Origin: Bilabrum cf. latius
Taxonomy: Eukaryota
Length of the DNA: 20,000 bases
Reading direction: 5' to 3'
Assembly: GCA_965178125.1 (NCBI GenBank)
Contig: OZ237767.1
Span: 788,522-808,521, forward strand
In this document: one piece after another, positions 1 through 18,086 of the stretch
How positions within the stretch are numbered: position 1 is the stretch's first letter
How the letters are laid out: every line of letters begins with the position of its first letter
The notes under the pieces: model-generated
Told to the model about the DNA's origin: nothing
Databases searched by the model: none
What the model saw: the letters and a program-made list of their open reading frames with translations, nothing else
Made by a program: the position numbers and the translations under genes

Positions 1-2436
1 CAGCTTTTCTATCTCCTTGTCTCGGTCCTGGCACCGAGCCTTCTCCCGGGCCAGCTGGGTCCTCGCCCGCAGCAGGTCCTGCTTGGCGCGTGTGGCGCCA
101 GCACCCGAATCTGCCCCGCTCGGCCCTGCTCCCTGCTGCCTCTTGGCGGCGGCTCGCCCAAGTTGGACCTTGGCCGCCCGCACCGCGAACTCCAACGTGC
201 ACGTGCTCTCCTGCGCATCGGCGCTTACCGGTGAGACGTGAGCGAACAGGATCGCCCTGCCGCCACTGCCCGGGGTCAGGCAAGGCGACAGCAGGCTCGT
301 CAGCGCGGAGTCTCGGAACGGCACATGGGGAGACTTGCGCTGCAGGGCTGCGAGCACGCTCCCCAGCGTGCTCAGGCTCTAGTTGATGTGCTGTGCCTCC
401 TTGCGAGCACTACCCACGGCACCTGACCTGGCCAGCCGTTCGGACCCTGCTAGATCCACCAGAGTCAGAACGCCTTCCCTGAACTCAGCCGGGGGTGCGT
501 CGCTTCCGTCGTCACGATCTGACTCGCCCGCTAGGCCTGCAGTCAGCCGTGCTCTCACTCTCACCACGAGGTGCGATCGGGAGGACCGCTCGTTCATGTC
601 AGTCTTGGACGAGGCGCGCTGCTCCAGACCGTGCAGTACCGCCCGCATCACCTCGCGGGGCTCGTGCACGGCCTGCTCGGCGAGACCCTCCAGTAGGACA
701 CCCCCATGACTCGGGTGCTCCGAGGCTGCAGCTCGACTGGGGTCCACCATACGGGCTAGCACCTTGCGGGGTCCTGCAGTCGAGTCGTCAGCCGCGGATA
801 GCCTGGGCAGCAGGTCCCTGATCTGCTCGTTGTAGATCTCCATCATGCTCAGGTGCAGCTCAACGGTGCCCTCCCCGCATGCCCTTACCTCCTCTGCGGC
901 TTCGAACAGCTGCAGCACGGCCCGCGGGATGAGGCCAGCCTGGGCCAACTCTGGGCCGGCACCATCCCCGGCTTGCTCGTTCCCAGCGGCTCCCGGCTCG
1001 GCAGCAAGATGAGTAGAGTACTCCTCCGGGCCTAGCATGGTGTACGTCTTGCCAGATCCAGTTTGCCCGTAGCTCAGCACGGCGCAGTCCACACCCTGCA
1101 CCACGGATGCAACGCTGTCCCTCACCTCGGAGAAACACTCCTGCTGGGTAGATGCGGGGCCGTGCACGCTGTCCACATCAAAGGAGCGGACAGACTTGCG
1201 GCTGCCTTCTCGTGTGCCTCCAGACTCAGTGTCCACCAGAAGCCTGCCCTCGCCCGTGGCAGTGGCCCCGGGAGCCACCCGAAGCGCCTCCACGTCCTCC
1301 CTGGCCTGTGCCCCCGAGCGGCGTGGGGGCGGCCTCACCCTCACCACGACCCGGATGGCGCCCTTCAGTTCTGCCACCTGGTTGCGGAGAGCACGCGCCT
1401 CCTTCACTGCGAGCCTTACCCTGGCCTGCAGCTCCTGGGCCTGCTGGCTGGCCTTCTCTTGCGCCTGCTGCCTCTCGAGGCGAGCATCCTGCAGCGCCCG
1501 CCCCAGTGCCTCTGCCTCCTGCTGCGCTTTTGCCGCGCGGCAAGCGGCCGCCTCGAGAGCTTGAGAGCCTTCTTTCGCACTAGAGGTTGCCGATGCATCC
1601 TGCTCTGCCCGTGCACTCTCCATCTCCCGCCGGGCCAGGTCCAGCTCAGCCCTCGCCGCCTCCAAGTCAGCGCGCACAGCGGACAGCTCGTGCTCGTGAG
1701 ACTCTTGAGCGGCAAGGGACGAAGCCGCGGAATTATCTCTCCTCAATTTGCGCGCATGCGCTGCTTCTTCTTGCGCTCGTTGTGCCTGCTGCTCTGCACT
1801 TGCTGCTCGCTTGAGCGCTGCAACACGGGCAGCATCCGTTCCAACTCGTGCCTACTCTGCTTGTCTCGCGCGATACCGGGCGTCCCTCAGGCCTTCCTGG
1901 GCCCTCTTTGCATCTTGTTTGCACTCCTCTAGCTGCTGCTCGGCAGAACTCGCTCTCGATTCGGCTAGCTGGACTGCAACCGAGAGTCGTTGCAGCTCAG
2001 CTTTCATCGCTGAAACCTTCGACTTCGTCGTGTCCAGGGTCACCTTGTGAGCGTCAGAAGATCTTTTTTTCTCCATTGTTGTTGTGATTGCATCGCAGTG
2101 AGTTCGGGCGAGGTCGGACTTTAGCTATTCGTTGGTCCGCTCCAAGATCTCTCGCGAGCGCTCAGACTCTTCCAGAGCATCTCGCAGCTTCATTAGCTCT
2201 GACGCTTGCAACGACATTTCGTTTTCAAACTTTCGAGATAGTTCTCTCTCCCGTTGCTTCATCTCCAGCTTGTGGTCCTCATCCCGTCGCTGTATCTCTT
2301 GCAGCAGCACTTGCGTCTCCTCGGACTCGGACACGCCATCTATTGCACTGCTCGCCCCGCTTCTCTACAAAATTGATGCTTTATTACGTTCAATTAAAGG
2401 TTGACTGCCTTCAGCCTTGGTGAAAAACCCAAACAT
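1..2436 (-). CDS. Kinesin-14-type motor protein (N-terminal coiled coil, neck, motor domain, C-terminal coiled coil); 3' end runs off the window; requires TAG as sense
   Basis: ORFs 2125-2334, 1852-2076 and 379-1746 share one frame and are separated only by TAG (2365-2367, 2125-2127, 1852-1854, 379-381). Motifs: neck LRNQVAELKGAIRVVVRVRP, P-loop YGQTGSGKT, EIYNEQIRDLL, switch I NERSSRSH, switch II LVDLAGSER. After TAG 379 the domain continues as SLSTLGSVLAALQRKSPHVPFRDSALTSLL...VSP...ESTCTLEFA. The only ATG between the upstream in-frame TGA (2518-2520) and 2334 is 2436-2434 (MFGFFTKAE). The frame stays open to position 1. Confidence 0.93.
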
Positions 2437-2616
2437 GCTCCAATTGCTCAACCTTTCGGAATGGCGCGAACCGCAACTCTCACCAAACCGGAACAACTCG
2501 GGAAAACAGAACGTTCGTCACGCGGGGCTTCAAAGTTCGTTTCTCTGATCCGGGATCCTCCCGACAGTCCTGCAGAAACACGTTCACAGGGACTTGTCAT
2601 CAAGCAAAAGTTTAGC

Positions 2617-4236
2617 ATGCTAGTTTTGAGCTTGGTGGCGCTGGTATCGAGTTCGAGTGCTTAGAATGATGGATTCTATTCTGGAAGATCGGAGTGGACG
2701 CGTCATTTGCTCGGTATGCCTAAACGCACAACCGTGATGACCGCCCAACAGATCATGTATGATCGCCATCTGCACGTGCGCTCTCAATCAAGCAACCAGT
2801 CTGCATGGATCTCGGTGCTAGATTACGGTGCAGACCCAACAGGCGAGTCTGACAGCTCCACAGCTGTGCTTGCCGCGTTGTCGGCGGCTGCAAACTTGTC
2901 ATCACGAGCCGATCCAAACGTAGGGTCGGCTGATGTCCAAGTGAGCCTTGAAGGGGGTTTGTACCGCATCGACTCGCCGCTCCAGATTCCAGGCAACTCC
3001 AAGGGTGTCTCGCTCGTCGATGGCGCACTAGTCGCTGGGCCGGGGTTCCCATCATCGAGGCACATGATCGAGGTGATGCCGCAGCCGGGGACTGGCACTC
3101 CGACAGAATTAGCGTTTACGAATCTCGTGCTGGATGCATCCCACCGAGGGGGGTGCTTCCGCTCGGACAGCATCGTGCAGATGACCGTGCAAGAGGTCTT
3201 CTTCTTGCACTACTCATCGGAGGGAATCTTGGGGTCCTCGGAGCATGGATCCGGGCACGAGCTCATGGTGAGCAAGTGCTTCTTTGCCGAGTACATGTGG
3301 GGCGAGCCTGGATTCAACGTGAAGGCCATGAAGACAGGCACCGCCGTGCACATGACCTACCCGGACTCGCACGTGATCGACTCGATCATCCGCTGCTCGA
3401 AGGTGGGCGTGTACAACGAGGGCGGCTCTAACCTGTTCCAGGGCCTCCACATCTACACCACGTGCGATCACGGATCAGACGCTGCCAACATGACGGACGG
3501 GTACATTGCGGCCGGCACACAGCAGAGATTCATTGATGGTTACATCGACAGCTGCGTAGCTCGAGTGAAGACGTTCGGGGGCACTTCAATCCAGAACACG
3601 CTATTTTTTGGGCAAGGCCGGCTCGTGCTGGATCCAAAACGTTGGAGCAAGTCCAGCAACTTCGCTCACGTGCAGGGTCTAATCGTGGAGGGCAACCACT
3701 TCACGTGCGCGGGGGCACCATGGGGCCAGGCGTGCGGCAACATGACCATCGAGTCTACCGAGGGTGTGCGGCTGCTGCCCAACGCGGTTTTTTCCTCCTC
3801 CGTCGTGGACAACAACTGGGCGAATGCCCCCGACGCAGCCAGCACCAGGCCGCAGGGACGTGTGTTCTTGAATGCCACCCTGGCTGAGCTATCGCAGGGG
3901 CCGGGCGGTGGCGGTGGCGTGGTGGTGAATGTGACGCTTGATCAGCGGTTTGCTCTACCCGTGACCCTGGCCAAGGTCGGCCCCGGTGCCACCATTGGCA
4001 TTGACAGCGAGGCTTCCCCGCTGCGGCGGGTGCAAGCAACCGCCACATCGTCGACGCCCGTAGGTAGCGGCTCGTGTGGGTCTGCAAGGGTGGCGCCATT
4101 GGTAGCAACCCCGCTGTCGCTCGGTGCCGAAGGAACTAGCATGCAGGTGATGGTACACTCGACGTGCCAGGTCCAAGGTGCGGACTCTTCGCAGATCTCC
4201 GTGGGTGTGTATGTCCAGGCGGATCAGTCCACGTGA
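2617..4236 (+). CDS. Secreted beta-helix (pectate lyase superfamily) protein resembling plant QUARTET3 (QRT3) polygalacturonase; ~539 aa with TAG as sense
   Basis: ATG 2617 gives a signal-peptide-like MLVLSLVALVSSSSA, then TAG 2662-2664, then an open frame into ORF 2707-4236, ending TGA. ISVLDYGADPTGESDSSTAV is the Pectate_lyase_3 N-terminal motif. LEGGLYRIDSPL, LDASHRGG, SGHELMV and NLFQGLHIY recall QRT3 (recognised from memory, not from a search). Confidence 0.8.
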
Positions 4237-4358
4237 TTTGCGCTGCGTGCACGGGGCCTCGAGCGACTGGGGCCTACATCCGGACTGTGCGCGCATGCGT
4301 GCGATCGAGCGAGCGAGCATGTGTATTCAGATTATCAATCCGTGCAGTCGTGTATTCT

Positions 4359-5877
4359 TTAGTCCAACTCGCCAACAACAACCGCAGCCGCTCCCTCCTC
4401 GCTGCCAGGCGCCTCACCATCCCCCCCTGCATCCGCCACCGCACCCTCGCTTCCGTCTGCATCTCCAGCTTCAGCCGCAGCCTTCGCCCCAGACTCGGCA
4501 GCTTCGTCCTGCCCTGCGTCCCCCTTTATCCCCGCAGCTGTATCCTCCCCCTCATCCCCCGGCTAGGCTTTCCCTGTGTCGCGGAGGCTGCTCTCCACTG
4601 GCACTGCAGAAGCTGCAGGGGAAGGGGCGGCAGCGCCACCTGCGTCCAGCGGCGGCACATCTTGCTCCTTCGATGCGGTCGCCTGCTCACTCGCGATGGT
4701 AGCATCCTTCGAAACTGCTCCCATGGCCTTCTTGAGCTGCTTGACCGCCCTCCCTTGCAACTGCCGGCACAAACTCTCTAGCTTCGAGTTGCGGGACTGC
4801 AGCCGAGCGCACAGCCGAAGCGCCTCCGCTGCCTCCTCGCCCCTTCGCGCTGCCAGCTTCTCCAGCTCCCGGGTGCGCTTGTTCAGCATTGAAGAACGCT
4901 TACTGGCCTCTTGCAGCGTGCGCGTAGTCTCCGTAATCAAGGCCTGCTGCTCTGAAAGCTGCGCTCTCAGCGCATCTACCTCCTTCTGCTTCGAATCCAA
5001 GGCATCCTTCTGCTGGTCCATCAGAGCGGCCATTTTCTCAAGGTGGGCCATGGCTTTCGTCGACTTCTCTTCTGCTATCTATTTTTCCAGCTTTGCGATG
5101 CGCAGTTCCGCCACGTGACTTTGCTGAACCATGTCAATCTAGCGCTCGAGTGCAGCGGCGCGGTCGACAGCGCTGCGTAGTGGGGGCAGAGACAAGTCTA
5201 GATCATCTGCCTTAATGACACAAACACATCATGAATACGGTATATAAGCTAGAACTTGCATGAAATTGAAACGGATTAACCACAAAGAATACTTACGCCG
5301 CCCTGGCCTTGTCGAGGGCCCCGTGGTCGTCAACTTTTTTCATCACATCCTGCGATAACGTACCGGTGGCCCGGATCGGATGGACAAGTATTATAGTCGT
5401 GCTAACAAGGTGGCAAAGTAGCACTACTAGCAGACTACCCGAGCGCCTCAGCTCAATCAAGTCTGCATGGCTTTAGCCCAAGCATCTAACCTCAATGCGT
5501 CGTTCAAACTCCGCCCTATCCTGCTTTTGCCGCTCAGAAACTTCCAAATTTAGCTTTTCTACCCTTTCTGCGTGAGCCTTTTGGTGTGCCTCTTGCTCTT
5601 TTGCTTTCTGTTTCAAAACAGATGTCAAACGCTGCAACACCTCATTCTACCGCTAAAGCTTCTCAGTCTTTTGTTTTTCGCTGCCTAATGCACGTTGCGA
5701 TACTTGTAGATCCCCTTTATGCTGTTCCACCTCAGATTTGAATCGTTTTGTAGCCTCCGTGGCTTGCTGCAGTTGTGCCCGCAACTACAAACGACTTGAT
5801 ACGTTCTTTTCCTGCTCCGATTTCAAGAGACTCCGAAGCTCTTTGACCTGTTGCTCTAGTCTACCGGTATCAGACAT
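4359..5877 (-). CDS. Taxilin-like long coiled-coil protein, 3 exons (5877-5491, 5349-5297, 5172-4359), ~417 aa with TAG as sense
   Basis: Exon lengths 387+53+814 = 1254 nt, divisible by 3. In-frame TAG at 5785, 5653, 5647, 5139, 5079 and 4563. KLESLCRQLQ resembles the taxilin motif LE(K/S)LCR.LQ. An acidic Ala/Gly tail follows TAG 4563 and ends GELD-TAA (4361-4359), where GC content drops. Confidence 0.75.
5173..5296 (-). other. Spliceosomal intron (124 nt) in the taxilin-like gene
   Basis: Donor GTAAGT (5296-5291), acceptor TACGCAG (ending 5173). The join GC|C restores the coiled-coil frame. The interior is AT-richer. Confidence 0.75.
5350..5490 (-). other. Spliceosomal intron (141 nt) in the taxilin-like gene
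   Basis: Donor GAG|GTTAGA at 5490, acceptor CGCAG ending 5350. The phase-0 join gives FERRIE|DVMKKVD. Confidence 0.65.
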
Positions 5878-6052
5878 GTGATGGTCAAATTCTGAGCAGA
5901 AAAACGCGCTTAAATGACATAACACGCAGATTGGTGAATCGCTCGTCACACTAGTAGGAGTACGCACCGCAGCAGTGCCCCCAGCCTAGATGTTTATCCA
6001 CATGTCTGTCCGGTTTCCAGCGGCCGTCGAGGCACGTCATTGCAGTAGAGAC

Positions 6053-7387
6053 TTACAAGGCTGATCCAGAACTGGGGGCAGCACCAGCACCAGCACCAGC
6101 ACCAGCACCAGCACCAGCACCAGCACCAGCACCAGCACCAGCACCAGCACCAGCACCAGCACCAGCACCAGCACCAGCACCAGCACCAGCACCAGCACCA
6201 GCACCAGCACCAGCACCAGCACCAGCACCAGCACCAGCACCAGCACTCTCGGTCTCAAGTTCTTCGATGCTCCGCTTGGCCTCAAGCAGACGGGCCAGCC
6301 GGGCCTTCTTGGTCGCGACTTTCGCCCGAGCATCAGCCACTAGAGTGCTTCTTCGCGCAGCTTCTATTCGAACGCGTTCCGCCCGAACCTTGAGGTCTTC
6401 CGCAGCAGCCCATGCGTGACCCTCCACGCCGGCGCTCCAACCGATCAGCGCATCTGCTAGCCGGTGGTGACCCGCCCTTCGTGCCACCTCGGCTACGGAT
6501 GCCCCCGTCCCGGGGTCAGCCGGTGCATGCACCCAGGCGGCAGAGGGGGCATCCGCCGAGAGCGCGCGCAGAGTCCCAATCCGACCAGCAGCCGCGGCGA
6601 GCGTCACTGCAAGCCCGCCTCCCGCCCCGGAATCAGGTGCGGAGACCCTTGCCGCCCGGGAGGCCCCTGCCGCCACGAGCACGCGCACCGCCTCAGTGTG
6701 GCCCTTCCTCGCCGCAATGTGCAGCGCGGTCTCTCCCGCTCCTGTGCGCGCCTCCAGGTCCAGCCCAAGCGAGCCCCGAGGAGGTGGAGCCGGGCCCGCA
6801 CTTGAGACTAGCAGTGCGCGAAGGACCGCCGCGTGACCCCCGGCCGCTGCCAAGTGTAGTGGCGTCCAGCCGTTTCTGGGATCGCGTGCCAGCAATGCGC
6901 CGGCCTTTGGCGAAGCGTGGCCTGTTCCGCCTCCCGCAGTTTTGGCCAAGGCACCAGGTCGCACGTCCATCACGGGTTGGTTCAGATCAAAAAGCAGCAG
7001 TCGCCCGCCTGTCGCGCGATTCTAGGCGTGTCCCAGTCGCACCAGCTCTTCTACTACATCAACTTCTCCTCTACGGCAGGCATCGTGCAGGGCTGAGCGA
7101 CCGTTGCCATCAAGAGCAGTGACGTCGGCTCCAAGCCTCTGCAACATCCGCAGGATTTCAAAGGAGCGCACGCCTCCTCTAGCTGCAACATGCACACATG
7201 TTTTGCCAAAATGGTGCATCCAGTCCCTAGCATTCAGGTCTCCCCCACGGGCCACAGCCGAGGCCAGCAATGTAGTGTCACGCCGCTCCACAGCCTCGAA
7301 TGCCTCCTACTCGGGCAAAGACAAAGGTCTCTCCCCGCGGGCTATGTCACAGAGCACAATTTCGGCCGTTTCAGAGTCTGCGATCAT
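6053..7387 (-). CDS. Ankyrin-repeat protein with C-terminal poly(Gly-Ala) tract, ~444 aa with TAG as sense
   Basis: ORFs 7022-7291 and 6053-6973 are in frame, joined through TAG 7022-7024, with another TAG at 7307-7309. ATG 7387 is the first ATG after the upstream in-frame TGA. Ankyrin motifs: GKTCVHVAA, GRSALHDAC, GWTPLHLAA, GETALHIAARKGH. It ends at TAA 6055-6053, which overlaps a GTAAGT, so the 3' end is uncertain. Confidence 0.85.
6078..6246. repeat. (GCACCA)n hexamer microsatellite, ~28 perfect copies, encoding (Gly-Ala)n on the minus strand
   Basis: Read directly from the sequence; lies in the ankyrin gene frame. Confidence 0.95.
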
Positions 7388-7672
7388 GTTGCTAGCCAGG
7401 AAACCAATGCTACCACGACCCCAACGGATCCAATCGCTTCTCAGCGTGCAATCGCTACAATTCTCAGTATTCACTCCACGACATGCTCCTCAATCCAGAT
7501 AAACACCTGCTGCTAGTAGATTATGTCTGAGACATTTCATTTATGTGTTTCTCTCAATGTGAATATCGCTTTGAATGTAAACGCTGCCGATCTGCGAATT
7601 ATGAAGATGAAAACTATGCTGCAACGCCACAGGACTCTCAGAAGGCCTTCACCCGTCGTGCCAATACACGCA

Positions 7673-8443
7673 ATGTCTGGGAAAGCAGATTCGAATATAA
7701 CGGTTCGAATGGGGGAAGGCCGTAGGCGTATTGTCCGGTAGGTTCAAGCTTCCAGGGGGGCAGCGACCTTGTCGGAGCGATTCGCGCAGATAAGACGCAG
7801 GGCAGCAGCCCTGTAGCGAGAAAGATCAAAGCAGCCGGCGGTTGTTGTTTAGGTGCCCCGAGTGTCTGTGCAGCAAAGCCAGCGCCCTCAGCTGCAGGTT
7901 GACCGCCCGAAATCCAATGGTCGTTTAGAGATTCGCAAGTCACCGGGAGGTCGCCAGCGTTTCTTGGATGTTCAGCCCAAGAGTTCCAAGTATCAAGCCA
8001 TGGACGCGTCATACAAGCGTGGCGATGCTGGCAAGCGATCGTCTGGCAGTCCCCGGGTTCGTGGCGGTGGCCGGGATCGGGCAGACCAGCCTCAACGTGG
8101 CCCCAAGCAGCAAGCGAAGAAGCAGACCGCCCGAGCTCCGTAGCGCAAGGCTGCATCACAGGCTGCTGCCGCTCCAGGTGGCAAGAAGAATGGGGTGGCA
8201 AAGGCAGGTGCTGGCGCCGGCGCAAAGCCGAAGGGCAAGGAATCGAAGAAGCAGGAGAAGGGTGCTGACTTGGGGCTGTCCAAGAGCGTAGACCCCGCGA
8301 GTCTTGACTACGAAATGGACCGCTACAGGCACCAGGCAGGGCGAGGTCCCGACCCAGATCAGGCCCGGTTGGATCGGGAGCTGGAGGGGTACAGGGCAGG
8401 TCGCAAAGGCAAAGGGACTGCGGGAGCCGAGGGGTCGACCTGA
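7673..8443 (+). CDS. Chtop/FOP (chromatin target of PRMT1)-like RNA-binding/mRNA export protein, ~256 aa with TAG as sense
   Basis: ORFs 7523-7741, 7853-8143 and 8195-8443 share a frame, with TAG at 7739, 7814, 7850 and 8141, ending TGA. TLSERFAQI resembles the Chtop N-terminal SL.ERF motif and is visible only after reading through TAG. There is an R/G-rich middle and a duplicated C-terminal motif SLDYEMDRY / RLDRELEGY (FoP duplication type). The start ATG 7673 is inferred; other in-frame ATGs lie upstream. Confidence 0.75.
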
Positions 8444-8644
8444 AGACAGAGCGGGCCCCTGGCCGTCCATCGGATGACACTCACAGTTTTAATCATGACG
8501 ATTTGCAACCGTTTCTATAACCCACTAGGCTCTGTAGCAGAAACCCAACGATTTCCCAGGCCAGCAATTATTCCAGGTCCATGTGACGATCGTCACACGG
8601 GATCGACTGGGGAACTTCGCGAGCACAACAAACAGGCATCAGCA

Positions 8645-9976
8645 ATGTTTGCGAGCACGAATCAGCTAGAATCGGCTATACTAGAATACTTTGATGGCCG
8701 CTCCTGCAGGGCTGCAGTGAAGTCTCTGGAATCCGCAGGTTGGGCACGAAATGTGAGACAAACGAGCAGTTGCAGTTTTGAGATATGACCATTGGGCATG
8801 CAGGTGCGTTTTCCGAATACTAAGTTAGCATCGCTGGCTTGTGTTATTTTCTGTATGTTGCAGGTGCACCAGGGCTCCCTACGGGAGCGTGCCAAACAAT
8901 TGCTGGGGTCATCAAGGCTATCCCAGCGACCAGGTAGCGAGCAGCTCGACACAGGAAGCCGGTCATCCTCAGATTCCAGCTCAGATTCTAACTCAAGCTC
9001 TGACAGTGACAGTGGTACCGACAGTGATAGTGACAGGGATGACGCTAGCGAAAATCAGAGTGTGCCCATAGCTGCTGCCGTTGCTGCCGCTTCGGGAGAG
9101 GTCAAGGTACAGGTAGTCCCTCAAGATGGAGCCGACGCAGACGACGAGTCTTCATCTTCCAGTGACAGTGACAGTGATAGTGATAGTGATAGTGATAGTG
9201 ATAGTGATAGTGATAGTGACAGTGATAGTGATAGTGATAGTGATGGGGGCGCCAAGGCTGGTGCCGCCGATGAGACTTCACAGAAGCAAGCCAGCGGCAG
9301 TGCTGGCAGCAGCAGCAGTGACAGTAGCAGCAGCAGCAGTGACAGTAGCAGCAGCAGTGACAGCAGCAGCAGCAGTGACAGCAGCAGCAGCAGTGACAGC
9401 GATTCCTCGTCAGAATCTAGCGACGATGAGAAGGAGAAGGACGAGGAGAAGGACGAGGAGGAGGCGCGGGCAGGGCTGGGACAGAAACGGCCGCGACCGA
9501 CCTACGGGTCAGATGAAGCAGGAGGGGCCGAGCTTAAGTTCATGCAGAAACCTGATGAGGAGCTCGAAGACGGTCACGTGGCCAAGCGAGGGAGGACTGA
9601 AGCAGCACCCACCACGCCGGGCGCTCCCCCAGTGGAGTCCGAGTTCTACAATGCTGGAATTGCAGGGTACGGCATCGGTTCGGCTGCTCCTCGCCCCAAT
9701 GGCAGAGTGAGTGATGGGAAGCGCAAGGCTTTTTGCCGCATCAACGTGGAGGAGGAAGCCGCCAAGCTGCAGGGCGCCGACCATCGGATCAGGGACAACA
9801 GCTATGCTGGCACATTTGGCGACAAGGGCTGGGGTGCTCGAGCTAGTCAGGCAATGATGCGGGTGCGTGGCAAGGATTTCAGGCATGAAAAGACGAAGCG
9901 CAAGCGGGGTGGATATCGCGGGGGTCGTATCGACCCGATGGCAGTGACGTCATACATCTTCGAGGACAGTGACTGA
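8645..9976 (+). CDS. Nopp140/SRP40-like nucleolar phosphoprotein (N-terminal LisH-like helix, Ser/Asp tracts, SRP40_C domain); exons 8645-8752 and 8864-9976, ~406 aa
   Basis: The C-terminus WGARASQAMMRVRGKDFRHEKTKRKRGGYRGGRID...SYIFEDSD is the SRP40_C signature. Long SD/SS tracts are present. Exon 1 MFASTNQLESAILEYFDGRSCRAAVKSL is LisH-like. Ends TGA; no internal TAG. Confidence 0.9.
8753..8863 (+). other. Spliceosomal intron (111 nt) in the Nopp140/SRP40-like gene
   Basis: Donor AAT|GTGAGA, T-rich tract and TTGCAG acceptor; the phase-0 join keeps the frame. Confidence 0.65.
9161..9400 (+). repeat. (AGTGAY)n and (AGC)n coding microsatellites (Ser-Asp and poly-Ser tracts)
   Basis: Read directly; typical low-complexity acidic-serine tracts of the Nopp140 family. 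Confidence 0.9.
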
Positions 9977-10228
9977 TAGACAGTTGCAGCGTTTACGTTT
10001 GTCGGGCAAGCTTCGTTAATCCACTAACCCTGTAACTATTCGACATTCCAATCAAAGCATTCGCTGCCCGAATCGCCCCCCGGGGAGTCAATCCTGTAGC
10101 TCAAGTGGCGCTTGGAGGTCAGGTGTGCAGCTCTGGCTGCCGTTGAGGGTGGGAACCCTATCTAATCCTGTGAGCGGAAGGGACCTGTCGGTAACAGATG
10201 TCAGGCGGGCAGCTATACCTAACCCTAG

Positions 10229-10792
10229 CCAGCACCATGGCCTCATCCACGGCCCTCTCCACCCATCCACTGCCCGCCCCACCAGCACCATGGCCTCATC
10301 CACGGCCCTCTCCACCCATCCACTGCCCGCCCCACCAGCACCATGGCCTCATCCACGGCCCTCTCCACCCATCCACTGCCCGCCCCACCAGCACCATGGC
10401 CTCATCCACGGCCCTCTCCACCCATCCACTGCCCGCCCTACCAGCACCATGGCCTCATCCACGGCCCTCTCCACCCATCCACTGCCCGCCCCACCAGCAC
10501 CATGGCCTCATCCACGGCCCTCTCCACCCATCCACTGCCCGCCCCACCAGCACCATGGCCTCATCCACGGCCCTCTCCACCCATCCACTGCCCGCCCCAC
10601 CAGCACCATGGCCTCATCCACGGCCCTCTCCACCCATCCACTGCCCGCCCCACCAGCACCATGGCCTCATCCACGGCCCTCTCCACCCATCCACTGCCCG
10701 CCCCACCAGCACCATGGCCTCATCCACGGCCCTCTCCACCCATCCACTGCCCGCCCCACCAGCACCATGGCCTCATCCACGGCCCTCTCCAC
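10229..10792. repeat. 53-bp C-rich subtelomeric minisatellite, ~10.6 near-identical copies
   Basis: Unit CCAGCACCATGGCCTCATCCACGGCCCTCTCCACCCATCCACTGCCCGCCCCA recurs every 53 nt; one C>T variant near 10439. Confidence 0.95.
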
Positions 10793-11762
10793 TTAGGGGG
10801 TTTAGGGGTTAGGGTTAGGGTTAGGGTTAGGGTTAGGGTTAGGGTTAGGGTTAGGGTTAGGGTTAGGGTTAGGGTTAGGGTTAGGGTTAGGGTTAGGGTT
10901 AGGGTTAGGGTTAGGGTTAGGGTTAGGGTTAGGGTTAGGGTTAGGGTTAGGGTTAGGGTTAGGGTTAGGGTTAGGGTTAGGGTTAGGGTTAGGGTTAGGG
11001 TTAGGGTTAGGGTTAGGGTTAGGGTTAGGGTTAGGGTTAGGGTTAGGGTTAGGGTTAGGGTTAGGGTTAGGGTTAGGGTTAGGGTTAGGGTTAGGGTTAG
11101 GGTTAGGGTTAGGGTTAGGGTTAGGGTTAGGGTTAGGGTTAGGGTTAGGGTTAGGGTTAGGGTTAGGGTTAGGGTTAGGGTTAGGGTTAGGGTTAGGGTT
11201 AGGGTTAGGGTTAGGGTTAGGGTTAGGGTTAGGGTTAGGGTTAGGGTTAGGGTTAGGGTTAGGGTTAGGGTTAGGGTTAGGGTTAGGGTTAGGGTTAGGG
11301 TTAGGGTTAGGGTTAGGGTTAGGGTTAGGGTTAGGGTTAGGGTTAGGGTTAGGGTTAGGGTTAGGGTTAGGGTTAGGGTTAGGGTTAGGGTTAGGGTTAG
11401 GGTTAGGGTTAGGGTTAGGGTTAGGGTTAGGGTTAGGGTTAGGGTTAGGGTTAGGGTTAGGGTTAGGGTTAGGGTTAGGGTTAGGGTTAGGGTTAGGGTT
11501 AGGGTTAGGGTTAGGGTTAGGGTTAGGGTTAGGGTTAGGGTTAGGGTTAGGGTTAGGGTTAGGGTTAGGGTTAGGGTTAGGGTTAGGGTTAGGGTTAGGG
11601 TTAGGGTTAGGGTTAGGGTTAGGGTTAGGGTTAGGGTTAGGGTTAGGGTTAGGGTTAGGGTTAGGGTTAGGGTTAGGGTTAGGGTTAGGGTTAGGGTTAG
11701 GGTTAGGGTTAGGGTTAGGGTTAGGGTTAGGGTTAGGGTTAGGGTTAGGGTTAGGGTTAGGG
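10793..11762 (+). repeat. Telomeric (TTAGGG)n array, ~160 copies, G-strand pointing away from the genes
   Basis: Two variant proximal units (TTAGGGGG, TTTAGGGG), then perfect TTAGGG from 10809 to 11762. Confidence 0.98.
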
Positions 11763-11823
11763 TATCTAATATAAAGTCAGGGACAGGGTCGGGGAAAAAA
11801 AATTTTCATCTTCACTTTTTGTC

Positions 11824-13319
11824 GAAAAAATGCGCGCGACGATCTCGGCAACCAGATGAGATATGAGGACCGTTCAAACTGCATCGGGACGGCCTGGGGG
11901 TACAATGTGGGGCAAATGTTCCCCAGGTTCCGTTTTGACCGCGCGGCGACAATATGGCTGGACGAAGATTGTCATGCAGAAAAAATGCGCGCAACGATCT
12001 CGGCAACCAGATGAGATATGAAGACTGTTCAAACTGCATCGGGACGGCCTGGGGGTACAATGTTAGGCAAATGTTCCCCAGGTTCCGTTTATACCGCGCG
12101 GCGACAATATGGCTGGACGAAGATTGTCATGCAGAAAAAATGCGCGCGACGATCTCGGCAACCAGATGAGATATGAAGACCGTTCAAACTGCATCGGGAC
12201 GGCCTGGGACCACAACTGGGGGCAAATGTTCCCCAGGTTCCGTTTATACCGCGCGGCGACAATATGGCTGGACGAAGATTGTCATGCAGAAAAAATGCGC
12301 GCGGCGATCTCGGCAACCAGATGAGATATGAAGACCGTTCAAACTGCATCGGGACGGCCTGGGACCACAACTGGGGGCAAATGTTCCCCAGGTTCCGTTT
12401 ATTCCGCGCGGCGACAATATGGCTGGACGAAGATTGTCATGCAGAAAAAATGCGCGCGACGATCTCGGCAACCAGATGAGATATGAAGACCGTTCATACT
12501 GCATCGGGACGGCCTGGGGGTACAATGTGGGGCAAATGTTCCCCAGATTCCGTTTTGACCGCGCGGCGACAGTATGGGGGGACGAAGATTTTCAGGCAGA
12601 AAAAATGCGCGCGGCGATCTCGGCAACCACAGGAGATATGAAGACCGTTCAAACTGCATCGGGACGGCCTGGGACCACAACTGGGGGCAAATGTTCCCCA
12701 GGTTCCGTTTATACCGCGCGGCGACAATATGGCTGGACGAAGATTGTCATGCAGAAAAAATGCGCGCGGCGATCTCGGCAACCAGATGAGATATGAAGAC
12801 CGTTCAAACTGCATCGGGACGGCCTGGGACCACAACTGGGGGCAAATGTTCCCCAGGTTCCGTTTATTCCGCGCGGCGACAATATGGCTGGACGAAGATT
12901 GTCATGCAGAAAAAATGCGCGCGACGATCTCGGCAACCAGATGAGATATGAAGACCGTTCATACTGCATCGGGACGGCCTGGGGGTACAATGTGGGGCAA
13001 ATGTTCCCCAGATTCCGTTTTGACCGCGCGGCGACAGTATGGGGGGACGAAGATTTTCAGGCAGAAAAAATGCGCGCGGCGATCTCGGCAACCACAGGAG
13101 ATATGAAGACCGTTCAAACTGCATCGGGACGGCCTGGGACCACAACAGGGGGCAAATGTTCCCCAGGTTCCGTTTATACCGCGCGGCGACAGTATGGTGG
13201 GACGAAGATTGTCATGCAGAAAAAATGCGCGCGGCGATCTCGGCAACCAGATGAGATATGAAGACCGTTCAAACTGCATCGGGACGGCCTGGGACCACAA
13301 CTGGGGGCAAATGTTCCCC
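11824..13319. repeat. 155-bp satellite array A1 (~9.7 copies) with an internal 465-bp (3-mer) higher-order repeat
   Basis: Unit GAAAAAATGCGCGCRRCGATCTCGGCAACCAGATGAGATATGAAGACC... Spurious ORFs recur every 155 nt and are identical at 465-nt offsets (12244/12709, 12399/12864). Confidence 0.95.
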
Positions 13320-13616
13320 GTGATTCTATTACATCAAGCATTGCAAGTATGGGGTTTGCACACCTACATGGTTGGGTTTGCATACGTACATGGGTTCGGG
13401 TTAGGTAAGAGGTTTTCCTTAGGGGCGTTCATTAGCTGTAAATGAGATTTCTTGATTTCAGCCGTTCATTCGCACTTTGAGTCATCATCATGTGTCATGT
13501 GTGCGAAGTTTGGAGAATGGCTGGCACACAGCTCTCGAGCAATCGAGCAATACAAGTAAGTGCTCATCTGGTCGGCGCCACGCCCACAGTGACTGGGTGA
13601 CTGGCGATCTTCATTA

Positions 13617-14075
13617 ATGTCAGAAAACCAAGTACCGTAAATGATACAGTGCAATAATGCAAACTCATGAATCAGCAAATCGAATTTGCAACTCCCCCAC
13701 AAAGGGGCAAGGCTAGGAATAGGGTGTATGTCATATACCGGCGAGAGGAGGTTGGCCCCGAAAATTGGGTGGATTTTTTAATCATGTCAGAAAACCAAGT
13801 ACCGTAAATGATACAGTGCAATAATGCAAACTCATGAATCAGCAAATCAAATTTGCAACTCCCCCACAAAGGGGCAAGGCTAGGAATAGGGTGTATGTCA
13901 TATACCGGCGAGAGGAGGTTGGCCCCGAAAATTGGGTGGATTTTTTAATCATGTCAGAAAACCAAGTACCGTAAATGATACAGTGCAATAATGCAAACTC
14001 ATGAATCAGCAAATCGAATTTGCAACTCCCCCACAAAGGGGCAAGGCTAGGAATAGGGTGCATGTCACAGACCGG
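13617..14075. repeat. 167-bp AT-richer tandem repeat B1 (~2.7 copies)
   Basis: ATGTCAGAAAACCAAGTACCG starts at 13617, 13784 and 13951. Confidence 0.92.
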
Positions 14076-14358
14076 TAAGAGTGAGACTTGGTTGAAAATT
14101 ATGAAACTCCGAGTAATTCCAGGGAACAGAGGTGCGTAGACATCATGTGGAAGGTGTAAGGCATTGGACATATTTCCGGGCTGAGAAAACATGGATCAAA
14201 GATTCGGGCTAGCCCAAACATTTGCGCAAGTCCCGATAGCTCAGCAACCAGATGCGGCATGAGTGCGTTTGAATATGCATTCTATAAAAATGCCACGCCG
14301 GGCTACTTCGGCAATCCGAGATCACATATCCTGGAACACATGGATTTCATGGCTCTGA

Positions 14359-15851
14359 CTCTACCATTCGCCGTGATGCATGCTGGTGGTCAAACTGCGT
14401 CGCAGCACATGCCTGTGGGTCTGGAGCACCTCCATGATACAGTCCGAGGGCACAGTGAGGGCAGGAAGGGGTGTGAAATTCGACTCCGAGTTCGAAAAGT
14501 AACCGACGCGAAAGCAGTCGTGACCCGGCTATGACGAAGCCGCAGCCATCAACGACCAGTATCGGCTGAGATATGGACCATTAAACACCCAAATATGCCA
14601 CTTTCGTAACCCTAGCTATACGGAGAACGCCGATTTCTCGGCCCACAGACAGGATGTGCGTGCTATACGATGCGGGTTAGATAGGCCGGAGTCAGAACTA
14701 GTCGAGACGACGCGGGCACATGTTCGCTTGCAATCCGGAATCAGATAGGAGCAGGTAAACTGGTTCGGCTCTACCATTCGCCGTGATGCATGCTGGTGGT
14801 CAAACTGCGTCGCAGCACATGCCTGTGGGTCTGGAGCACCTCCATGATACAGTCCGAGGGCACAGTGAGGGCAGGAAGGGGTGTGAAATTCGACTCCGAG
14901 TTCGAAAAGTAATCGACGCGAAAGCAGTCGTGACCCGGCTATGACGAAGCCGCAGCCATCAACGACCAGTATCGGCTGAGATATGGACCATTAAACACCC
15001 AAATATGCCACTTTCGTAACCCTAGCTATACGGAGAACGCCGATTTCTCGGCCCACAGACAGGATGTGCGTGCTATACGATGCGGGTTAGATAGGCCGGA
15101 GTCGGAACTAGTCGAGACGACGCGGGCACATGTTCGCTTGCAATCCGGAATCAGATAGGAGCAGGTAAACTGGTTCGGCTCTACCATTCGCCGTGATGCA
15201 TGCTGGTGGCCAAACTGCGTCGCAGCACATGCCTGTGGGTCTGGAGCACCTCCATGATACAGTCCGAGGGCACAGTGAGGGCAGGAAGGGGTGTGAAATT
15301 CGACTCCGAGTTCGAAAAGTAACCGACGCGAAAGCAGTCGTGACCCGGCTATGACGAAGCCGCAGCCATCAACGACCAGTATCGGCTGAGATATGGACCA
15401 TTAAACACCCAAATATGCCACTTTCGTAACCCTAGCTATACGGAGAACGCCGATTTCTCGGCCCACAGACAGGATGTGCGTGCTATACGATGCGGGTTAG
15501 ATAGGCCGGAGTCGGAACTAGTCGAGACGACGCGGGCACATGTTCGCTTGCAATCCGGAATCAGATAGGAGCAGGTAAACTGGTTCGGCTCTACCATTCG
15601 CCGTGATGCATGCTGGTGGTCAAACTGCGTCGCAGCACATGCCTGTGGGTCTGGAGCACCTCCATGATACAGTCCGAGGGCACAGTGAGGGCAGGAAGGG
15701 GTGTGAAATTCGACTCCGAGTTCGAAAAGTAGCCGACGCGAAAGCAGTCGTGACCCGGCTATGACGAAGCCGCAGCCATCAACGACCAGTATCGGCTGAG
15801 ATATGGACCATTAAACACCCAAATATGCCACTTTCGTAACCCTAGCTATAC
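14359..15851. repeat. 410-bp tandem repeat C1 (~3.6 copies)
   Basis: CTACCATTCGCCGTG at 14361, 14771, 15181 and 15591; copies nearly identical. Confidence 0.93.
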
Positions 15852-16730
15852 GCAGAAAAAATGCGCGCGGCGATCTCGGCAACCAGATGAGATATGAAGA
15901 CCGTTCAAACTGCATCGGGACGGCCTGGGACCACAACAGGGGGCAAATGTTCCCCAGGTTCCGTTTTGACCGCGCGGCGATAATATGGTGGGACGAAGAT
16001 TGTCATGCAGAAAAAATGCGCGCGACGATCTCGGCAACCAGATGAGATATGAAGACCGTTCATACTGCATCGGGACGGCCTGGGACCACAACAGGGGGCA
16101 AATGTTCCCCAGGTTCCGTTTTGACCGCGCGGCGACAGTATGGGGGGACGAAGATTTTCAGGCAGAAAAAATGCGCGCGGCGATCTCGGCAACCAGATGA
16201 GATATGAAGACCGTTCATACTGCATTGGGACGGCCGGGGACCACAACTGGGGGCAAATGTTCCCCAGGTTCCATTTTGACCGCGCGGCGACAATATGGTG
16301 GGACGAAGATTTTCAGGCAGAAAAAATGCGCGCGGCGATCTCGGCAACCAGATGAGATATGAAGACCGTTCAAACTGCATTGGGACGGCCTGGGACCACA
16401 ACAGGGGGCAAATGTTCCCCAGGTTCCGTTTTGACCGCGCGGCGACAGTATGGGGGGATGAAGATTTTCAGGCAGAGAAAATGCGCGCGGCGATCTCGGC
16501 AACCAGATGAGATATGAAGACCGTTCATACTGCATTGGGACGGCCTGGGACCACAACTGGGGGCAAATGTTCCCCAGGTTCCGTTTATACCGCGCGGCGA
16601 CAATATGGCTGGACGAAGATTGTCAGGCAGAAAAAATGCGCGCGGCGATCTCGGCAACCAGATGAGATATGAAGACCGTTCAAACTGCATCGGGACGGCC
16701 GGGGACCACAACTGGGGGCAAATATTCCCC
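15852..16730. repeat. 155-bp satellite array A2 (~5.7 copies)
   Basis: Same unit as A1, and ends at the same phase (TTCCCC|GTGATTCT). Confidence 0.95.
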
Positions 16731-17027
16731 GTGATTCTATTACATCAAGCATTGCAAGTATGGGGTTTGCACACCTACATGGTTGGGTTTGCATACGTAC
16801 ATGGGTTCGGGTTAGGTAAGAGGTTTTCCTAAGGGGCGTTCATTAGCTGTAAATGAGATTTCTTGATTTCAGCCGTTCATTCGCACTTTGAGTCATCATC
16901 ATGTGTCATGTGTGCGAAGTTTGGAGAATGGCTGGCACACAGCTCTCGAGCAATCGAGCAATACAAGTAAGTGCTCATCTGGTCGGCGCCACGCCCACAG
17001 TGACTGGGTGACTGGCGATCTTCATTA

Positions 17028-17486
17028 ATGTCAGAAAACCAAGTACCGTAAATGATACAGTGCAATAATACAAACTCATGAATCAGCAAATCGAATTTGC
17101 AACTCCCCCACAGAGGGGCAAGGCTAGGAATAGGGTGTATGTCATATACCGGCGAGAGGAGGTTGGCCCCGAAAATTGGGTGGATTTTTTAATCATGTCA
17201 GAAAACCAAGTACCGTAAATGATACAGTGCAATAATGCAAACTCATGAATCAGCAAATCGAATTTGCAACTCCCCCACAGAGGGGCAAGGCTAGGAATAG
17301 GGTGTATGTCATATACCGGCGAGAGGAGCTTGGCCCCGAAAATTGGGTGGATTTTTTAATCATGTCAGAAAACCAAGTACCGTAAATGATACAGTGCAAT
17401 AATACAAACTCATGAATCAGCAAATCGAATTTGCAACTCCCCCACAAAGGGGCAAGGCTAGGAATAGGGTGCATGTCACAGACCGG
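17028..17486. repeat. 167-bp tandem repeat B2 (~2.7 copies)
   Basis: Copy of B1 at +3411 nt. Confidence 0.9.
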
Positions 17487-17769
17487 TAAGAGTGAGACTT
17501 GGTTGAAAATTATGAAACTCCGAGTAATTCCAGGGAACAGAGGTGCGTAGACATCATGTGGAAGGTGTAAGGCATTGGACATATTTCCGGGCTGAGAAAA
17601 CATGGATCAAAGATTCGGGCTAGCCCAAACATTTGCGCAAGCCGCGATAGCTCAGCACCCAGATGCGGCATGGGTGCGTTTGAATATGCATTCTATAAAA
17701 ATGCCACGCCGGGCTACTTCGGCAATCCGAGATCACATATCCTGGAACACATAGATCTCAGGTCTCTGA

Positions 17770-18086
17770 CTCTACCATTCGCCGTGACGCATGCTGGTGG
17801 TCAAACTGCGTCGCAGCACATGCCTGTGGGTCTGGAGCACCTCCATGATACAGTCCGAGGGCACAGTGAGGGCAGGAAGGGGTGTGAAATTCGACTCCGA
17901 GTTCGAAAAGTAGCCGACGCGAAAGCAGTCGTGACCCGGCTATGACGAAGCCGCAGCCATCAACGACCAGTATCGGCTGAGATATGGACCATTAAACACC
18001 CAAATATGCCACTTTCGTAACCCTAGCTATACGGAGAACGCCGATTTCTCGGCCCACAGACAGGATGTGCGTGCTATACGATGCGG
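17770..18086. repeat. Partial 410-bp unit C2
   Basis: Matches the C1 unit up to GATGCGG, then switches to the minisatellite. Confidence 0.88.

What the first reader, a model, noticed from the sequence alone, without database searches (positions are those of the whole stretch)
1..8443. Non-standard nuclear genetic code: UAG is a sense codon (probably Gln) while UAA and UGA stay stops
Seen in sequence: five neighbouring genes are interrupted by 17 in-frame TAGs (kinesin 379, 1852, 2125, 2365; QRT3-like 2662; taxilin-like 4563, 5079, 5139, 5647, 5653, 5785; ankyrin 7022, 7307; Chtop-like 7739, 7814, 7850, 8141), with no internal TAA, TGA or frameshift. Reading through TAG restores conserved domains and a signal peptide. 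Inferred ends are TGA (3 genes) and TAA (2 genes), never TAG. CAA and CGA codons are common in these genes, so random C>T decay or RIP-like mutation should also have produced TAA and TGA. Established knowledge: in eukaryotic nuclear codes UAA and UAG are nearly always reassigned together; UAG-only reassignment is known from few lineages (e.g. the fornicate Iotanema spirale, UAG=Gln; a rhizarian, UAG=Leu; some ciliates). Inference: Gln fits the contexts (IN*SL, KL*R*NE, polar coiled-coil positions, one transition from CAG), equivalent to translation table 15. This GC-rich, TTAGGG-telomere genome does not look like a ciliate, so it may be an independent, undescribed case.
Basis: partly seen in the sequence, partly recalled or inferred. 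Interest (0 to 1): 0.96.

Follow-up and report, generated by a model that had tools for sequence, protein, structure and literature searches.

The report
UAG read as glutamine, nuclear genes
This unidentified GC-rich eukaryote and a distant relative found in metagenomes use the stop codon UAG inside ordinary genes, almost certainly as glutamine, while UAA and UGA still end genes, which is a rare kind of genetic code change.

Summary
All 17 in-frame TAGs lie at the stated coordinates, with no in-frame TAA or TGA in 2,860 codons of six genes.

Contigs from three runs that behave as RNA splice out two GT..AG introns. They keep 10 of the 11 TAGs in the stretch that could be laid, with no base differences.

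A metagenome contig, L001, carries the same six genes in the same order at 38-61% protein identity. It has 46 in-frame TAGs, 0 TAA and 0 TGA in 3,936 codons. A second sample (L002) is 99.95% identical to it.

At 31 well-aligned TAG sites, 2 are TAG in both species. At the other 29 the partner residue is Q 16, K 5, A 3, H 2, E 1, S 1, R 1. Gln beats Lys, the next best, by 17-33 log-likelihood units.

Conserved C-termini end directly at TGA or TAA, never TAG.

So UAG=Gln with UAA and UGA as stops (table-15 type) is well supported. The tRNA and eRF1 mechanism is inferred, because no whole genome was held. The best named matches are green-lineage organisms, but the taxon is unresolved.

This code is known from a few other lineages. 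No paper found describes one like this.

The parts
1..2436 (-). Kinesin-14 gene. Start ATG at 2434-2436; the 3' end runs off the window. In-frame TAG codons at 379-381, 1852-1854, 2125-2127 and 2365-2367.
   Evidence: Pfam Kinesin 2e-75 and Microtub_bd 2.7e-25. The best named hits are plant KIN-14 proteins at 35-37% identity. The L001 orthologue is 55% identical over 804 columns, with the start Met aligned. RNA-type contig X5 record 7 covers 1-2441 with 0 differences.
2617..4236 (+). Secreted beta-helix (QRT3-like) gene. TAG at 2662-2664 follows the hydrophobic N-terminus. Stop TGA at 4234-4236.
   Evidence: In the L001 orthologue (P0126) this TAG aligns with Q. The C-terminus ADQST is conserved and followed by TGA in both species. 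RNA-type contig covers 2577-4330 with 0 differences. Pfam Pect-lyase_RHGA_epim scores only 17.2 bits against a cut-off of 27. A Curcuma QRT3-like protein matches at 7e-18.
4359..5877 (-). Exons 5877-5490, 5348-5297 and 5172-4359. 417 codons. TAGs at 5785, 5653, 5647, 5139, 5079 and 4563. Stop TAA at 4359-4361.
   Evidence: The spliced reading frame was computed from the RNA joints. The orthologue in L001 is 48-50% identical. The C-terminus VVVGELD is conserved, followed by TAA here and by TGA in L001. No family was found.
5349..5489 (-). Intron 1 (141 nt, GT..AG on the minus strand; the boundary can shift by 1). It is absent from the L001 orthologue.
   Evidence: The joint 5348>5490 appears in contigs of X5, X6 and X7 and not in DNA run X1. 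L001 reads straight through the corresponding residues.
5173..5296 (-). Intron 2 (124 nt, GTAAGT...CAG on the minus strand).
   Evidence: The joint 5172>5297 appears in contigs of X5, X6 and X7 and not in X1. Intron ends were read.
6053..7387 (-). Ankyrin-repeat gene. TAGs at 7307-7309 and 7022-7024. Stop TAA at 6053-6055. Its 3' part holds a (CAGCAC)x28 repeat that encodes Gly-Ala repeats.
   Evidence: Pfam Ank_2 7e-27. The L001 orthologue is 38% identical. The TAG at 7307 aligns with Q, and the TAG at 7022 aligns with a TAG in L001. The repeat is reported.
7673..8443 (+). FoP/Chtop-like gene. TAGs at 7739, 7814, 7850 and 8141. Stop TGA at 8441-8443.
   Evidence: Pfam FoP_duplication 8e-5, 23.6 bits against a cut-off of 24.6. 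The L001 orthologue is 45% identical, with an aligned start Met and a conserved C-terminus EGST followed by TGA in both. The TAG at 7739 aligns with Q.
8798..9976 (+). SRP40/Nopp140-like gene. No TAG. Stop TGA at 9974-9976. Included as the sixth syntenic gene and as a stop-codon control.
   Evidence: Pfam SRP40_C 9e-21. The L001 orthologue is 52% identical, with the conserved C-terminus FEDSD followed by TGA in both.

Best explanation
The window comes from the nuclear genome of a GC-rich eukaryote in which UAG is an ordinary sense codon decoded as glutamine, while UAA and UGA still terminate translation. This is the same assignment as NCBI table 15.

UAG makes up about 10% of Gln-type codons here and about 22% in a relative that has diverged to about 50% protein identity, so the change is old and fixed in a clade.

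Shown here:
- TAG is in frame in conserved, spliced and transcribed genes.
- TAG is exchanged with CAG and CAA between orthologues.
- TAA and TGA are excluded from coding frames and sit at conserved C-termini.

Inferred from how other UAG-only codes are thought to work (passages of PMC5304391):
- a tRNA-Gln with anticodon CUA, one mutation away from CUG, which pairs with UAG but not UAA;
- an eRF1 whose N-terminal domain has lost efficient recognition of UAG.
For: 1. Positions and counts. The window has 17 TAG, 0 TAA and 0 TGA in 2,860 codons of six genes. L001 has 46 TAG, 0 TAA and 0 TGA in 3,936 codons of seven genes, counted as eight frame pieces because its coiled-coil gene was taken as two exon pieces.

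2. Synteny. All six window genes have orthologues in the same order and orientation on L001, at 38-61% identity. L002, from another metagenome, is 99.95% identical to L001 over 3,748 nt and repeats 18 of its in-frame TAGs.

3. Residue identity. There are 31 well-aligned TAG sites (at least 5 of 14 flanking identities, no gaps). Two are TAG in both species. At the other 29 the partners are Q 16, K 5, A 3, H 2, E 1, S 1, R 1. The log-likelihood for Gln exceeds the next residue, Lys, by 33.4 with the matrix taken from these same alignments and by 16.9 with BLOSUM62. The 16/29 share matches the Q-to-Q conservation of 68/134 in the same alignments. The partner codons are CAG 8 and CAA 8.

4. UAA is not Gln. 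The CAA share of CAR codons is 0.31 in the window and 0.45 in L001. The chance of no TAA at that share is 1.9e-3 and 1e-12. The coiled-coil gene's conserved C-terminus ends at TAA in the window and TGA in L001.

5. Gene ends. Of 12 gene ends, 9 are TGA, 3 are TAA and 0 are TAG. At 8 of them (4 orthologue pairs) conserved residues abut the stop.

6. RNA. Contigs of X5, X6 and X7 (two studies) skip 5173-5296 and 5349-5489 with GT..AG ends, while DNA run X1 does not. They show 0 other letters over 10 of the 11 TAGs in 1-6070.
Against: - At the one TAG in a deeply conserved motif (379, HIN-x-SLS of the motor), 113 of 120 kinesin homologues and L001 have Lys, and 6 have Arg.
- Lys is the partner at 5 of 29 sites, more than the Q-K exchange seen in the same alignments (4 of 134).
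- No tRNA gene lies in the window, L001 or L002, and no eRF1 sequence or whole genome was available. The decoding machinery is therefore entirely inferred.
- The sample is 13 genes from two syntenic loci, not a genome.
- The tool labels the RNA status of X5-X7 as a guess. Splicing is the only sign that they are cDNA.
- Use of TAG as an occasional terminator is not excluded. The DUF6739 gene of L001 has TAGs 13 and 3 codons before its TGA, with no orthologue to judge by.
Confidence: 0.88

Rival explanations
1. UAG is ambiguous. It is read as Gln inside genes but also terminates some genes, depending on context, as in codes where stop codons have two meanings.
For: Only 12 gene ends were seen, so 0 TAG ends is weak evidence. 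The L001 DUF6739 gene has two TAGs within 13 codons of its TGA. The base after TAG differs from that after CAG: A 38% against 18%, G 19% against 38%, with n=68 and 199.
Against: At 8 gene ends with conserved C-termini the terminator is TGA or TAA directly after the last conserved residue. In L001, ankyrin TAGs close to the C-terminus are followed by sequence conserved with the window. In a standard-code genome some of 12 ends would be expected to be TAG.
Confidence: 0.07
2. UAG is a sense codon but encodes another residue, Lys being the best alternative, or is decoded as a mixture of Gln and Lys.
For: The conserved kinesin site has Lys in 113 of 120 homologues and in L001. Lys is the partner at 5 of 29 sites. 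The partner codon AAG (4 sites) is one step from TAG.
Against: Gln is the partner at 16 of 29 sites. Lys is 16.9 to 33.4 log-likelihood units worse. Lys-to-Lys conservation in these alignments is 94/136, so a Lys codon should pair mostly with Lys. Ser (1 of 29) and Leu (0 of 29) fit worse still.
Confidence: 0.03
3. Both UAA and UAG are reassigned to Gln (the table-6 type, as in some ulvophycean green algae and ciliates), and UAA is simply rare because the genome is GC-rich.
For: This is the common form of the change. In Ulvophyceae TAG is used more than TAA (passages of PMC2984419). The best named matches of three window genes are green-lineage organisms.
Against: There are 0 TAA against 63 in-frame TAG, while CAA is 31-45% of CAR codons (P 1.9e-3 and 1e-12). 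TAA ends the coiled-coil gene exactly at a conserved C-terminus where L001 has TGA. TAA also ends the window ankyrin gene and the L001 kinesin gene.
Confidence: 0.01
4. The genes are decaying pseudogenes or carry assembly errors, or the TAGs are corrected by RNA editing or bypassed by site-specific readthrough.
For: The locus is next to telomeric repeats and satellites, a region where pseudogenes gather.
Against: There are no TAA, TGA or frameshifts in 6,796 codons of two species. Gene order and C-termini are conserved. The same TAGs appear in a DNA run and in spliced RNA-type contigs with 0 differences, and in two independent metagenomes. With 63 sites at about 1% of codons, this is not site-specific recoding.
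Confidence: 0.01

Closest known systems
UAG-only reassignment to Gln with UAA kept as a stop: the fornicate Iotanema spirale, the ciliate Protocruzia tuzeti and two phyllopharyngean ciliate lineages. Seen in passages of PMC5304391 and PMC11687900. The assignment is called 'genetic code 15' in the abstract start of PMC9523058 (listing).
   Same: In-frame UAG at Gln positions. UAA and UGA are the only terminators seen. No in-frame UAA.
   Different: This genome is GC-rich (49-67% per kb), carries TTAGGG-type repeats and short GT..AG introns, and its best named protein matches are plants and green algae. That does not fit a ciliate or a fornicate. The tRNA and eRF1 could not be compared.
TAR (UAA+UAG) to Gln in the ulvophycean green algae Dasycladales, Trentepohliales, Cladophorales and Blastophysa. 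Seen in passages of PMC2984419 and PMC8271138.
   Same: Stop-to-Gln change by a single C>T step from CAG. Possibly the same broad lineage (green algae), judged only by best named hits.
   Different: In that code TAA is also Gln and TGA is the only stop. Here TAA is never in frame (0 against 63 TAG) and ends genes.
UAG to Ser with UAA as a stop in the green alga Scotinosphaera. Seen in passages of PMC8271138.
   Same: Only UAG is reassigned. UAA and UGA stay stops. A green-lineage organism.
   Different: The residue differs. Ser is the partner at 1 of 29 sites here, against Gln at 16.
UAG to Leu in the rhizarian exLh. Seen in passages of PMC5304391.
   Same: UAG-only reassignment, with terminators exclusively UAA or UGA.
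   Different: Leu is the partner at 0 of 29 sites here.

Membership tests
Nuclear code with UAG=Gln and UAA/UGA as stops (table-15 type) | UAG occurs in frame inside conserved protein-coding genes | tested here: met
   17 in six window genes and 46 in seven L001 genes. The Pfam kinesin domain spans one of them.
Nuclear code with UAG=Gln and UAA/UGA as stops (table-15 type) | UAG aligns with Gln in orthologues | tested here: met
   Q at 16 of 29 informative well-aligned sites. Gln is best by 16.9-33.4 log-likelihood units. One deeply conserved kinesin site is Lys in homologues.
Nuclear code with UAG=Gln and UAA/UGA as stops (table-15 type) | UAA and UGA are not sense codons | tested here: met
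   0 TAA and 0 TGA in 6,796 codons. Conserved C-termini end at TGA or TAA.
Nuclear code with UAG=Gln and UAA/UGA as stops (table-15 type) | UAG is not used as a terminator | tested here: inconclusive
   0 of 12 gene ends, but the sample is small. The L001 DUF6739 C-terminus is ambiguous.
Nuclear code with UAG=Gln and UAA/UGA as stops (table-15 type) | UAG is present in the mature mRNA (no editing) | tested here: met
   10 of the 11 TAGs in 1-6070 are covered by contigs of runs that show splicing, with 0 differences.
Nuclear code with UAG=Gln and UAA/UGA as stops (table-15 type) | A tRNA-Gln gene with anticodon CUA, and no tRNA(UUA) | not testable with these tools
   No genome is held. There are no tRNA genes in the window, L001 or L002.
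Nuclear code with UAG=Gln and UAA/UGA as stops (table-15 type) | eRF1 N-domain changes that weaken UAG recognition | not testable with these tools
   No eRF1 sequence of this organism was reachable.
TAR=Gln code (table-6 type) | In-frame UAA at Gln positions, with UGA as the only stop | tested here: not met
   0 TAA against 63 TAG (P 1.9e-3 and 1e-12). TAA ends 3 of 12 genes.
UAG=Ser (Scotinosphaera type) and UAG=Leu (rhizarian exLh type) | UAG aligns with Ser or with Leu | tested here: not met
   Ser at 1 of 29 sites and Leu at 0 of 29.
   Pfam gave no taxilin hit at E<=0.01 for either exon piece; the only hit was ANG-1 at 22.8 bits, below its cut-off. phmmer of exon 3 against 1.84 billion representatives gave 0 hits at E<=0.001.
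Kinesin-14 | Kinesin motor with a preceding microtubule-binding/neck region and an N-terminal coiled coil; nearest relatives are KIN-14 | tested here: met
   Pfam Kinesin 2e-75 and Microtub_bd 2.7e-25. The top named hits are KIN-14C, KIN-14D and KIN-14N. Unlike typical members, the L001 orthologue continues 243 residues beyond where the window copy runs off the window, which is itself 56 residues after the motor.

The most novel reading that the evidence does not exclude
This is an undescribed clade of GC-rich, probably green-lineage microbial eukaryotes. Three members were seen: this organism, a relative at 95% identity known from one Logan protein (P0125), and a species at about 50% protein identity present in two metagenomes.

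The clade independently fixed UAG=Gln while keeping UAA and UGA as stops. That would be a new origin of a UAG-only code outside ciliates and metamonads.

It would also come with a genome assembly and RNA data already public, so the tRNA(CUA) and eRF1 changes could be read off directly. If the clade sits near the Ulvophyceae, it could show a UAG-only stage of the TAR=Gln change.
Probability: 0.45. Interest if true: 0.85.

Novelty: new member of a known kind. Interest (0 to 1): 0.74.

Why it matters
UAA and UAG almost always change meaning together. Nuclear codes that split them are known from only a handful of lineages (passages of PMC5304391 and PMC11687900).

A further case, in a GC-rich, intron-bearing genome that is neither ciliate nor metamonad, would matter in three ways:
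- It adds an independent test of what lets eRF1 and a tRNA(CUA) separate UAG from UAA.
- It shows the change is old, since it is shared by species at about 50% protein identity.
- The organism evidently has public DNA and RNA data, which makes it accessible for tRNA, eRF1 and proteomic work.

There is also a practical consequence. Standard gene callers truncate this lineage's proteins. The database copies P0125 and P0126 are cut at, or start after, TAGs. Its genes are therefore under-represented and mis-annotated in public protein sets.

Tried and rejected
- **Whole genome:** not held. Codon inference across the assembly, and tRNA, eRF1 and 18S searches, were therefore impossible.
- **tRNA and RNA family scans:** no tRNA genes in the window, L001 or L002. 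No Rfam family in the window.
- **Read laying:** Only 1-6070 was laid, so the ankyrin and FoP-like TAGs were not checked in RNA. No listed run is on record as RNA; X5-X7 are treated as RNA only because their contigs are spliced. RNA contigs of the coiled-coil gene stop at 4572/4573 in X5 and X7, and the TAG at 4563 has no listed cover. This is left unexplained. The conserved C-terminus shows that the coding sequence goes on to 4359.
- **Related loci:** scans with alignment A1 found nothing in genome contigs or viral contigs.
- **Representative-library search:** the coiled-coil exon 3 gave 0 hits, so deep conservation at its TAG sites could not be tallied.
- **Placing the organism:** not achieved. 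The best named matches are plants and green algae: KIN-14 at 35-37%, Elliptochloris bilobata SRP40_C at 55%, a Curcuma QRT3-like protein and Streptophyta clusters in the Atlas. These are best hits, not a phylogeny. The listing of cluster members gave no organism names. A search for 'DUF6739' in papers gave 0.
- **Literature:** eight searches found no paper describing a UAG=Gln, UAA-stop code in an alga or other GC-rich non-ciliate eukaryote. The library lacks most subscription journals, and supplements were closed.
- **Rejected readings:** pseudogenes or RIP, RNA editing, table-6 type, UAG=Ser and UAG=Leu. The reasons are given under the rival explanations.

Full report
**1. The observation**

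Reading the window with TAG as X gives long open frames where the standard code gives fragments.

- kinesin: 379, 1852, 2125, 2365
- QRT3-like gene: 2662
- coiled-coil gene: 4563, 5079, 5139, 5647, 5653, 5785
- ankyrin gene: 7022, 7307
- FoP/Chtop-like gene: 7739, 7814, 7850, 8141

With start codons fixed by orthologue alignment or by the first ATG of the transcript, the six coding sequences hold 2,860 codons with 17 TAG, 0 TAA and 0 TGA. Over all frames of 1-9976 the trinucleotide frequencies are TAG 0.90%, TAA 0.32% and TGA 1.47%. TAG therefore sits in frame at about its background rate, while the other two stops are completely excluded.

Pfam supports the genes:
- Kinesin 2e-75, spanning the TAG at residue 713, plus Microtub_bd
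- ankyrin repeats
- FoP_duplication just under its cut-off
- SRP40_C 9e-21 for a sixth gene at 8798-9976 that has no TAG

**2. Transcripts**

Runs X1-X4 hold 98-99% of the stretch's sampled words. X5-X7 hold 43-84% of them.

Laid on 1-6070, the DNA-type run X1 covers the stretch in one piece without joints. Contigs of X5, X6 and X7 (two studies) skip 5173-5296 and 5349-5489, both with GT..AG ends on the minus strand. These contigs are therefore spliced cDNA, although the tool labels their RNA status only as a guess.

They show no other letters. Between them they cover the four kinesin TAGs, the QRT3-like TAG and five of the six coiled-coil TAGs. The spliced coiled-coil coding sequence is 417 codons with 6 in-frame TAGs and ends in TAA. 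Editing of TAG, and untranscribed pseudogenes, are thus excluded for these genes.

**3. A second species with the same feature**

A protein search with the QRT3-like gene found three kinds of hit:
- P0125: 95% identity, beginning after the TAG position
- P0126: 64% identity, ending where the window has Gln-Gln
- only distant hits after those

A scan of metagenome contigs returned L001 (14,386 nt) and L002 (3,748 nt). L001 positions 2846-13660 carry orthologues of all six window genes in the same order and orientation, at 38-61% protein identity. Upstream lies a DUF6739 gene.

Its frames hold 3,936 codons with 46 TAG, 0 TAA and 0 TGA. L002, from another metagenome, is 99.95% identical to L001 and repeats 18 of its in-frame TAGs.

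The L001 orthologue of the coiled-coil gene lacks the window's 141-nt intron and reads straight through the same residues. This independently confirms the splice.

**4. Which amino acid**

I took TAG sites in pairwise alignments with at least 5 of 14 flanking identities and no gaps. That gives 31 sites, of which 2 are TAG in both species. At the remaining 29 the residue in the other species is:

| Partner | Sites |
|---|---|
| Q | 16 |
| K | 5 |
| A | 3 |
| H | 2 |
| E | 1 |
| S | 1 |
| R | 1 |

- The log-likelihood of these partners is highest for Gln. Lys, the next best, is lower by 33.4 with a matrix taken from the same alignments and by 16.9 with BLOSUM62.
- The 55% share of Q matches the conservation of ordinary Gln (68 of 134).
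- The partner codons are CAG 8 and CAA 8.
- Gln dominates for the window's own TAGs as well as for L001's.

Evidence on the other side:
- The single TAG in a deeply conserved motif (379, in the motor) aligns with Lys in 113 of 120 kinesin homologues and in L001.
- Lys is a more frequent partner (5 of 29) than Q-K exchange elsewhere in these alignments (4 of 134).

From memory only, kinesin-5 motors carry Gln at that motif position, so Gln would be tolerated there. No call checked this.

**5. UAA and UGA**

If TAA were used as CAA is (31% of CAR codons in the window, 45% in L001), the chance of seeing none beside 17 and 46 TAGs is 1.9e-3 and 1e-12.

Four orthologue pairs have C-termini conserved up to the stop:

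| Gene | Window stop | L001 stop |
|---|---|---|
| QRT3-like | TGA | TGA |
| FoP-like | TGA | TGA |
| SRP40-like | TGA | TGA |
| coiled-coil | TAA | TGA |

Over all 12 gene ends the terminators are TGA 9, TAA 3 and TAG 0. Twelve ends are too few to exclude occasional termination at TAG. The L001 DUF6739 gene has TAGs 13 and 3 codons before its TGA, with no orthologue to judge by.

**6. Mechanism**

What is shown is the codon usage. How it is decoded is inferred.

A tRNA that reads UAG but not UAA must have anticodon CUA, which is one change from tRNA-Gln(CUG). eRF1 is expected to be altered in its N-domain. This is argued for Iotanema and the rhizarian exLh (passages of PMC5304391).

Neither a tRNA gene nor eRF1 was within reach. 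No genome is held, and there are no tRNAs in the 38 kb at hand.

The base after TAG is more often A and less often G than after CAG. The meaning of this is unknown. It is not the classical leaky-stop context, which I state from recall.

**7. What organism**

This is not resolved. The sequence features are:
- GC of 49-67% per kb
- a (GGGTTA)x160 array
- short GT..AG introns
- six genes in 10 kb

The best named protein matches are plants and green algae. This points to the green lineage, but it rests on best hits only, not a phylogeny.

**8. Comparison with what is known**

UAG-only reassignments reported in the passages I read are:
- Leu in the rhizarian exLh
- Gln in Iotanema
- Ser in the green alga Scotinosphaera
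- Gln in Protocruzia tuzeti and twice in phyllopharyngean ciliates
- Leu in other phyllopharyngeans

(PMC11687900; PMC5304391; PMC8271138.)

The ulvophycean TAR=Gln code differs in that it uses TAA as Gln and only TGA as a stop (PMC2984419; PMC8271138).

The present case has the same assignment as the Iotanema and Protocruzia type, but in a genome that looks like neither. Eight literature searches found no description of such a lineage. The library omits most subscription journals, supplements were closed, and the sequencing runs date from 2025, so a recent report may exist.

**9. Verdict**

- The kind of code is known, and the lineage appears to be a new member of it.
- Confidence in UAG=Gln with UAA and UGA as stops: about 0.88.
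- Main open points: the tRNA and eRF1 basis, whether UAG ever terminates, Gln against Lys at the protein level, and the organism's identity.

Noticed in passing
window 10806-11763: A perfect (GGGTTA)x160 telomere-type array lies in the middle of the window, G-rich strand on +, as at a right chromosome end. It is followed by more than 8 kb of further sequence. It is either an interstitial telomeric array or an assembly join.
   Followed up: no
window 10229-10792: A 53-bp unit is repeated 10.6 times at 99% identity, directly abutting the telomere-type array.
   Followed up: no
window 11824-19995: A satellite field. The block of a 155-bp array, a 22-bp pair and a 167-bp array occurs twice (11824-14075 and 15852-17502), with a 410-bp array (14359-15857) between. 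From 18083 onward there are degenerate repeats of roughly 21 to 234 bp.
   Followed up: no
window 6079-6246: (CAGCAC)x28 at 100% identity at the 3' end of the ankyrin gene encodes a long Gly-Ala repeat before the TAA stop. The L001 orthologue lacks it.
   Followed up: partly
window 5349-5489 and L001 9036-9536: Intron presence or absence between the two species. The window's 141-nt intron and 52-nt micro-exon correspond to uninterrupted coding sequence in L001.
   Followed up: yes
window 4572-4573: RNA-type contigs of two studies (X5, X7) both stop here, about 10 nt before the TAG at 4563, although the conserved coding sequence continues to 4359. The cause is unknown; a graph branch, a coverage drop or an alternative 3' end are possible.
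   Followed up: partly
all in-frame TAGs, window and L001: The base after TAG is A in 38% and G in 19% of cases (n=68). After CAG it is A in 18% and G in 38% (n=199). Lys is an unexpectedly frequent partner of TAG: 5 of 29 sites, 4 of them as AAG.
   Followed up: partly
window 7638-8480 (-): A 280-codon open frame without any stop runs antisense to the FoP-like gene. It has no Pfam match and is probably a by-product of GC-rich sequence.
   Followed up: partly
L001 140-2677: An 822-codon DUF6739 gene (Pfam 2.6e-75) with 12 in-frame TAGs lies upstream of the kinesin orthologue. Its counterpart would lie beyond the window's start.
   Followed up: partly
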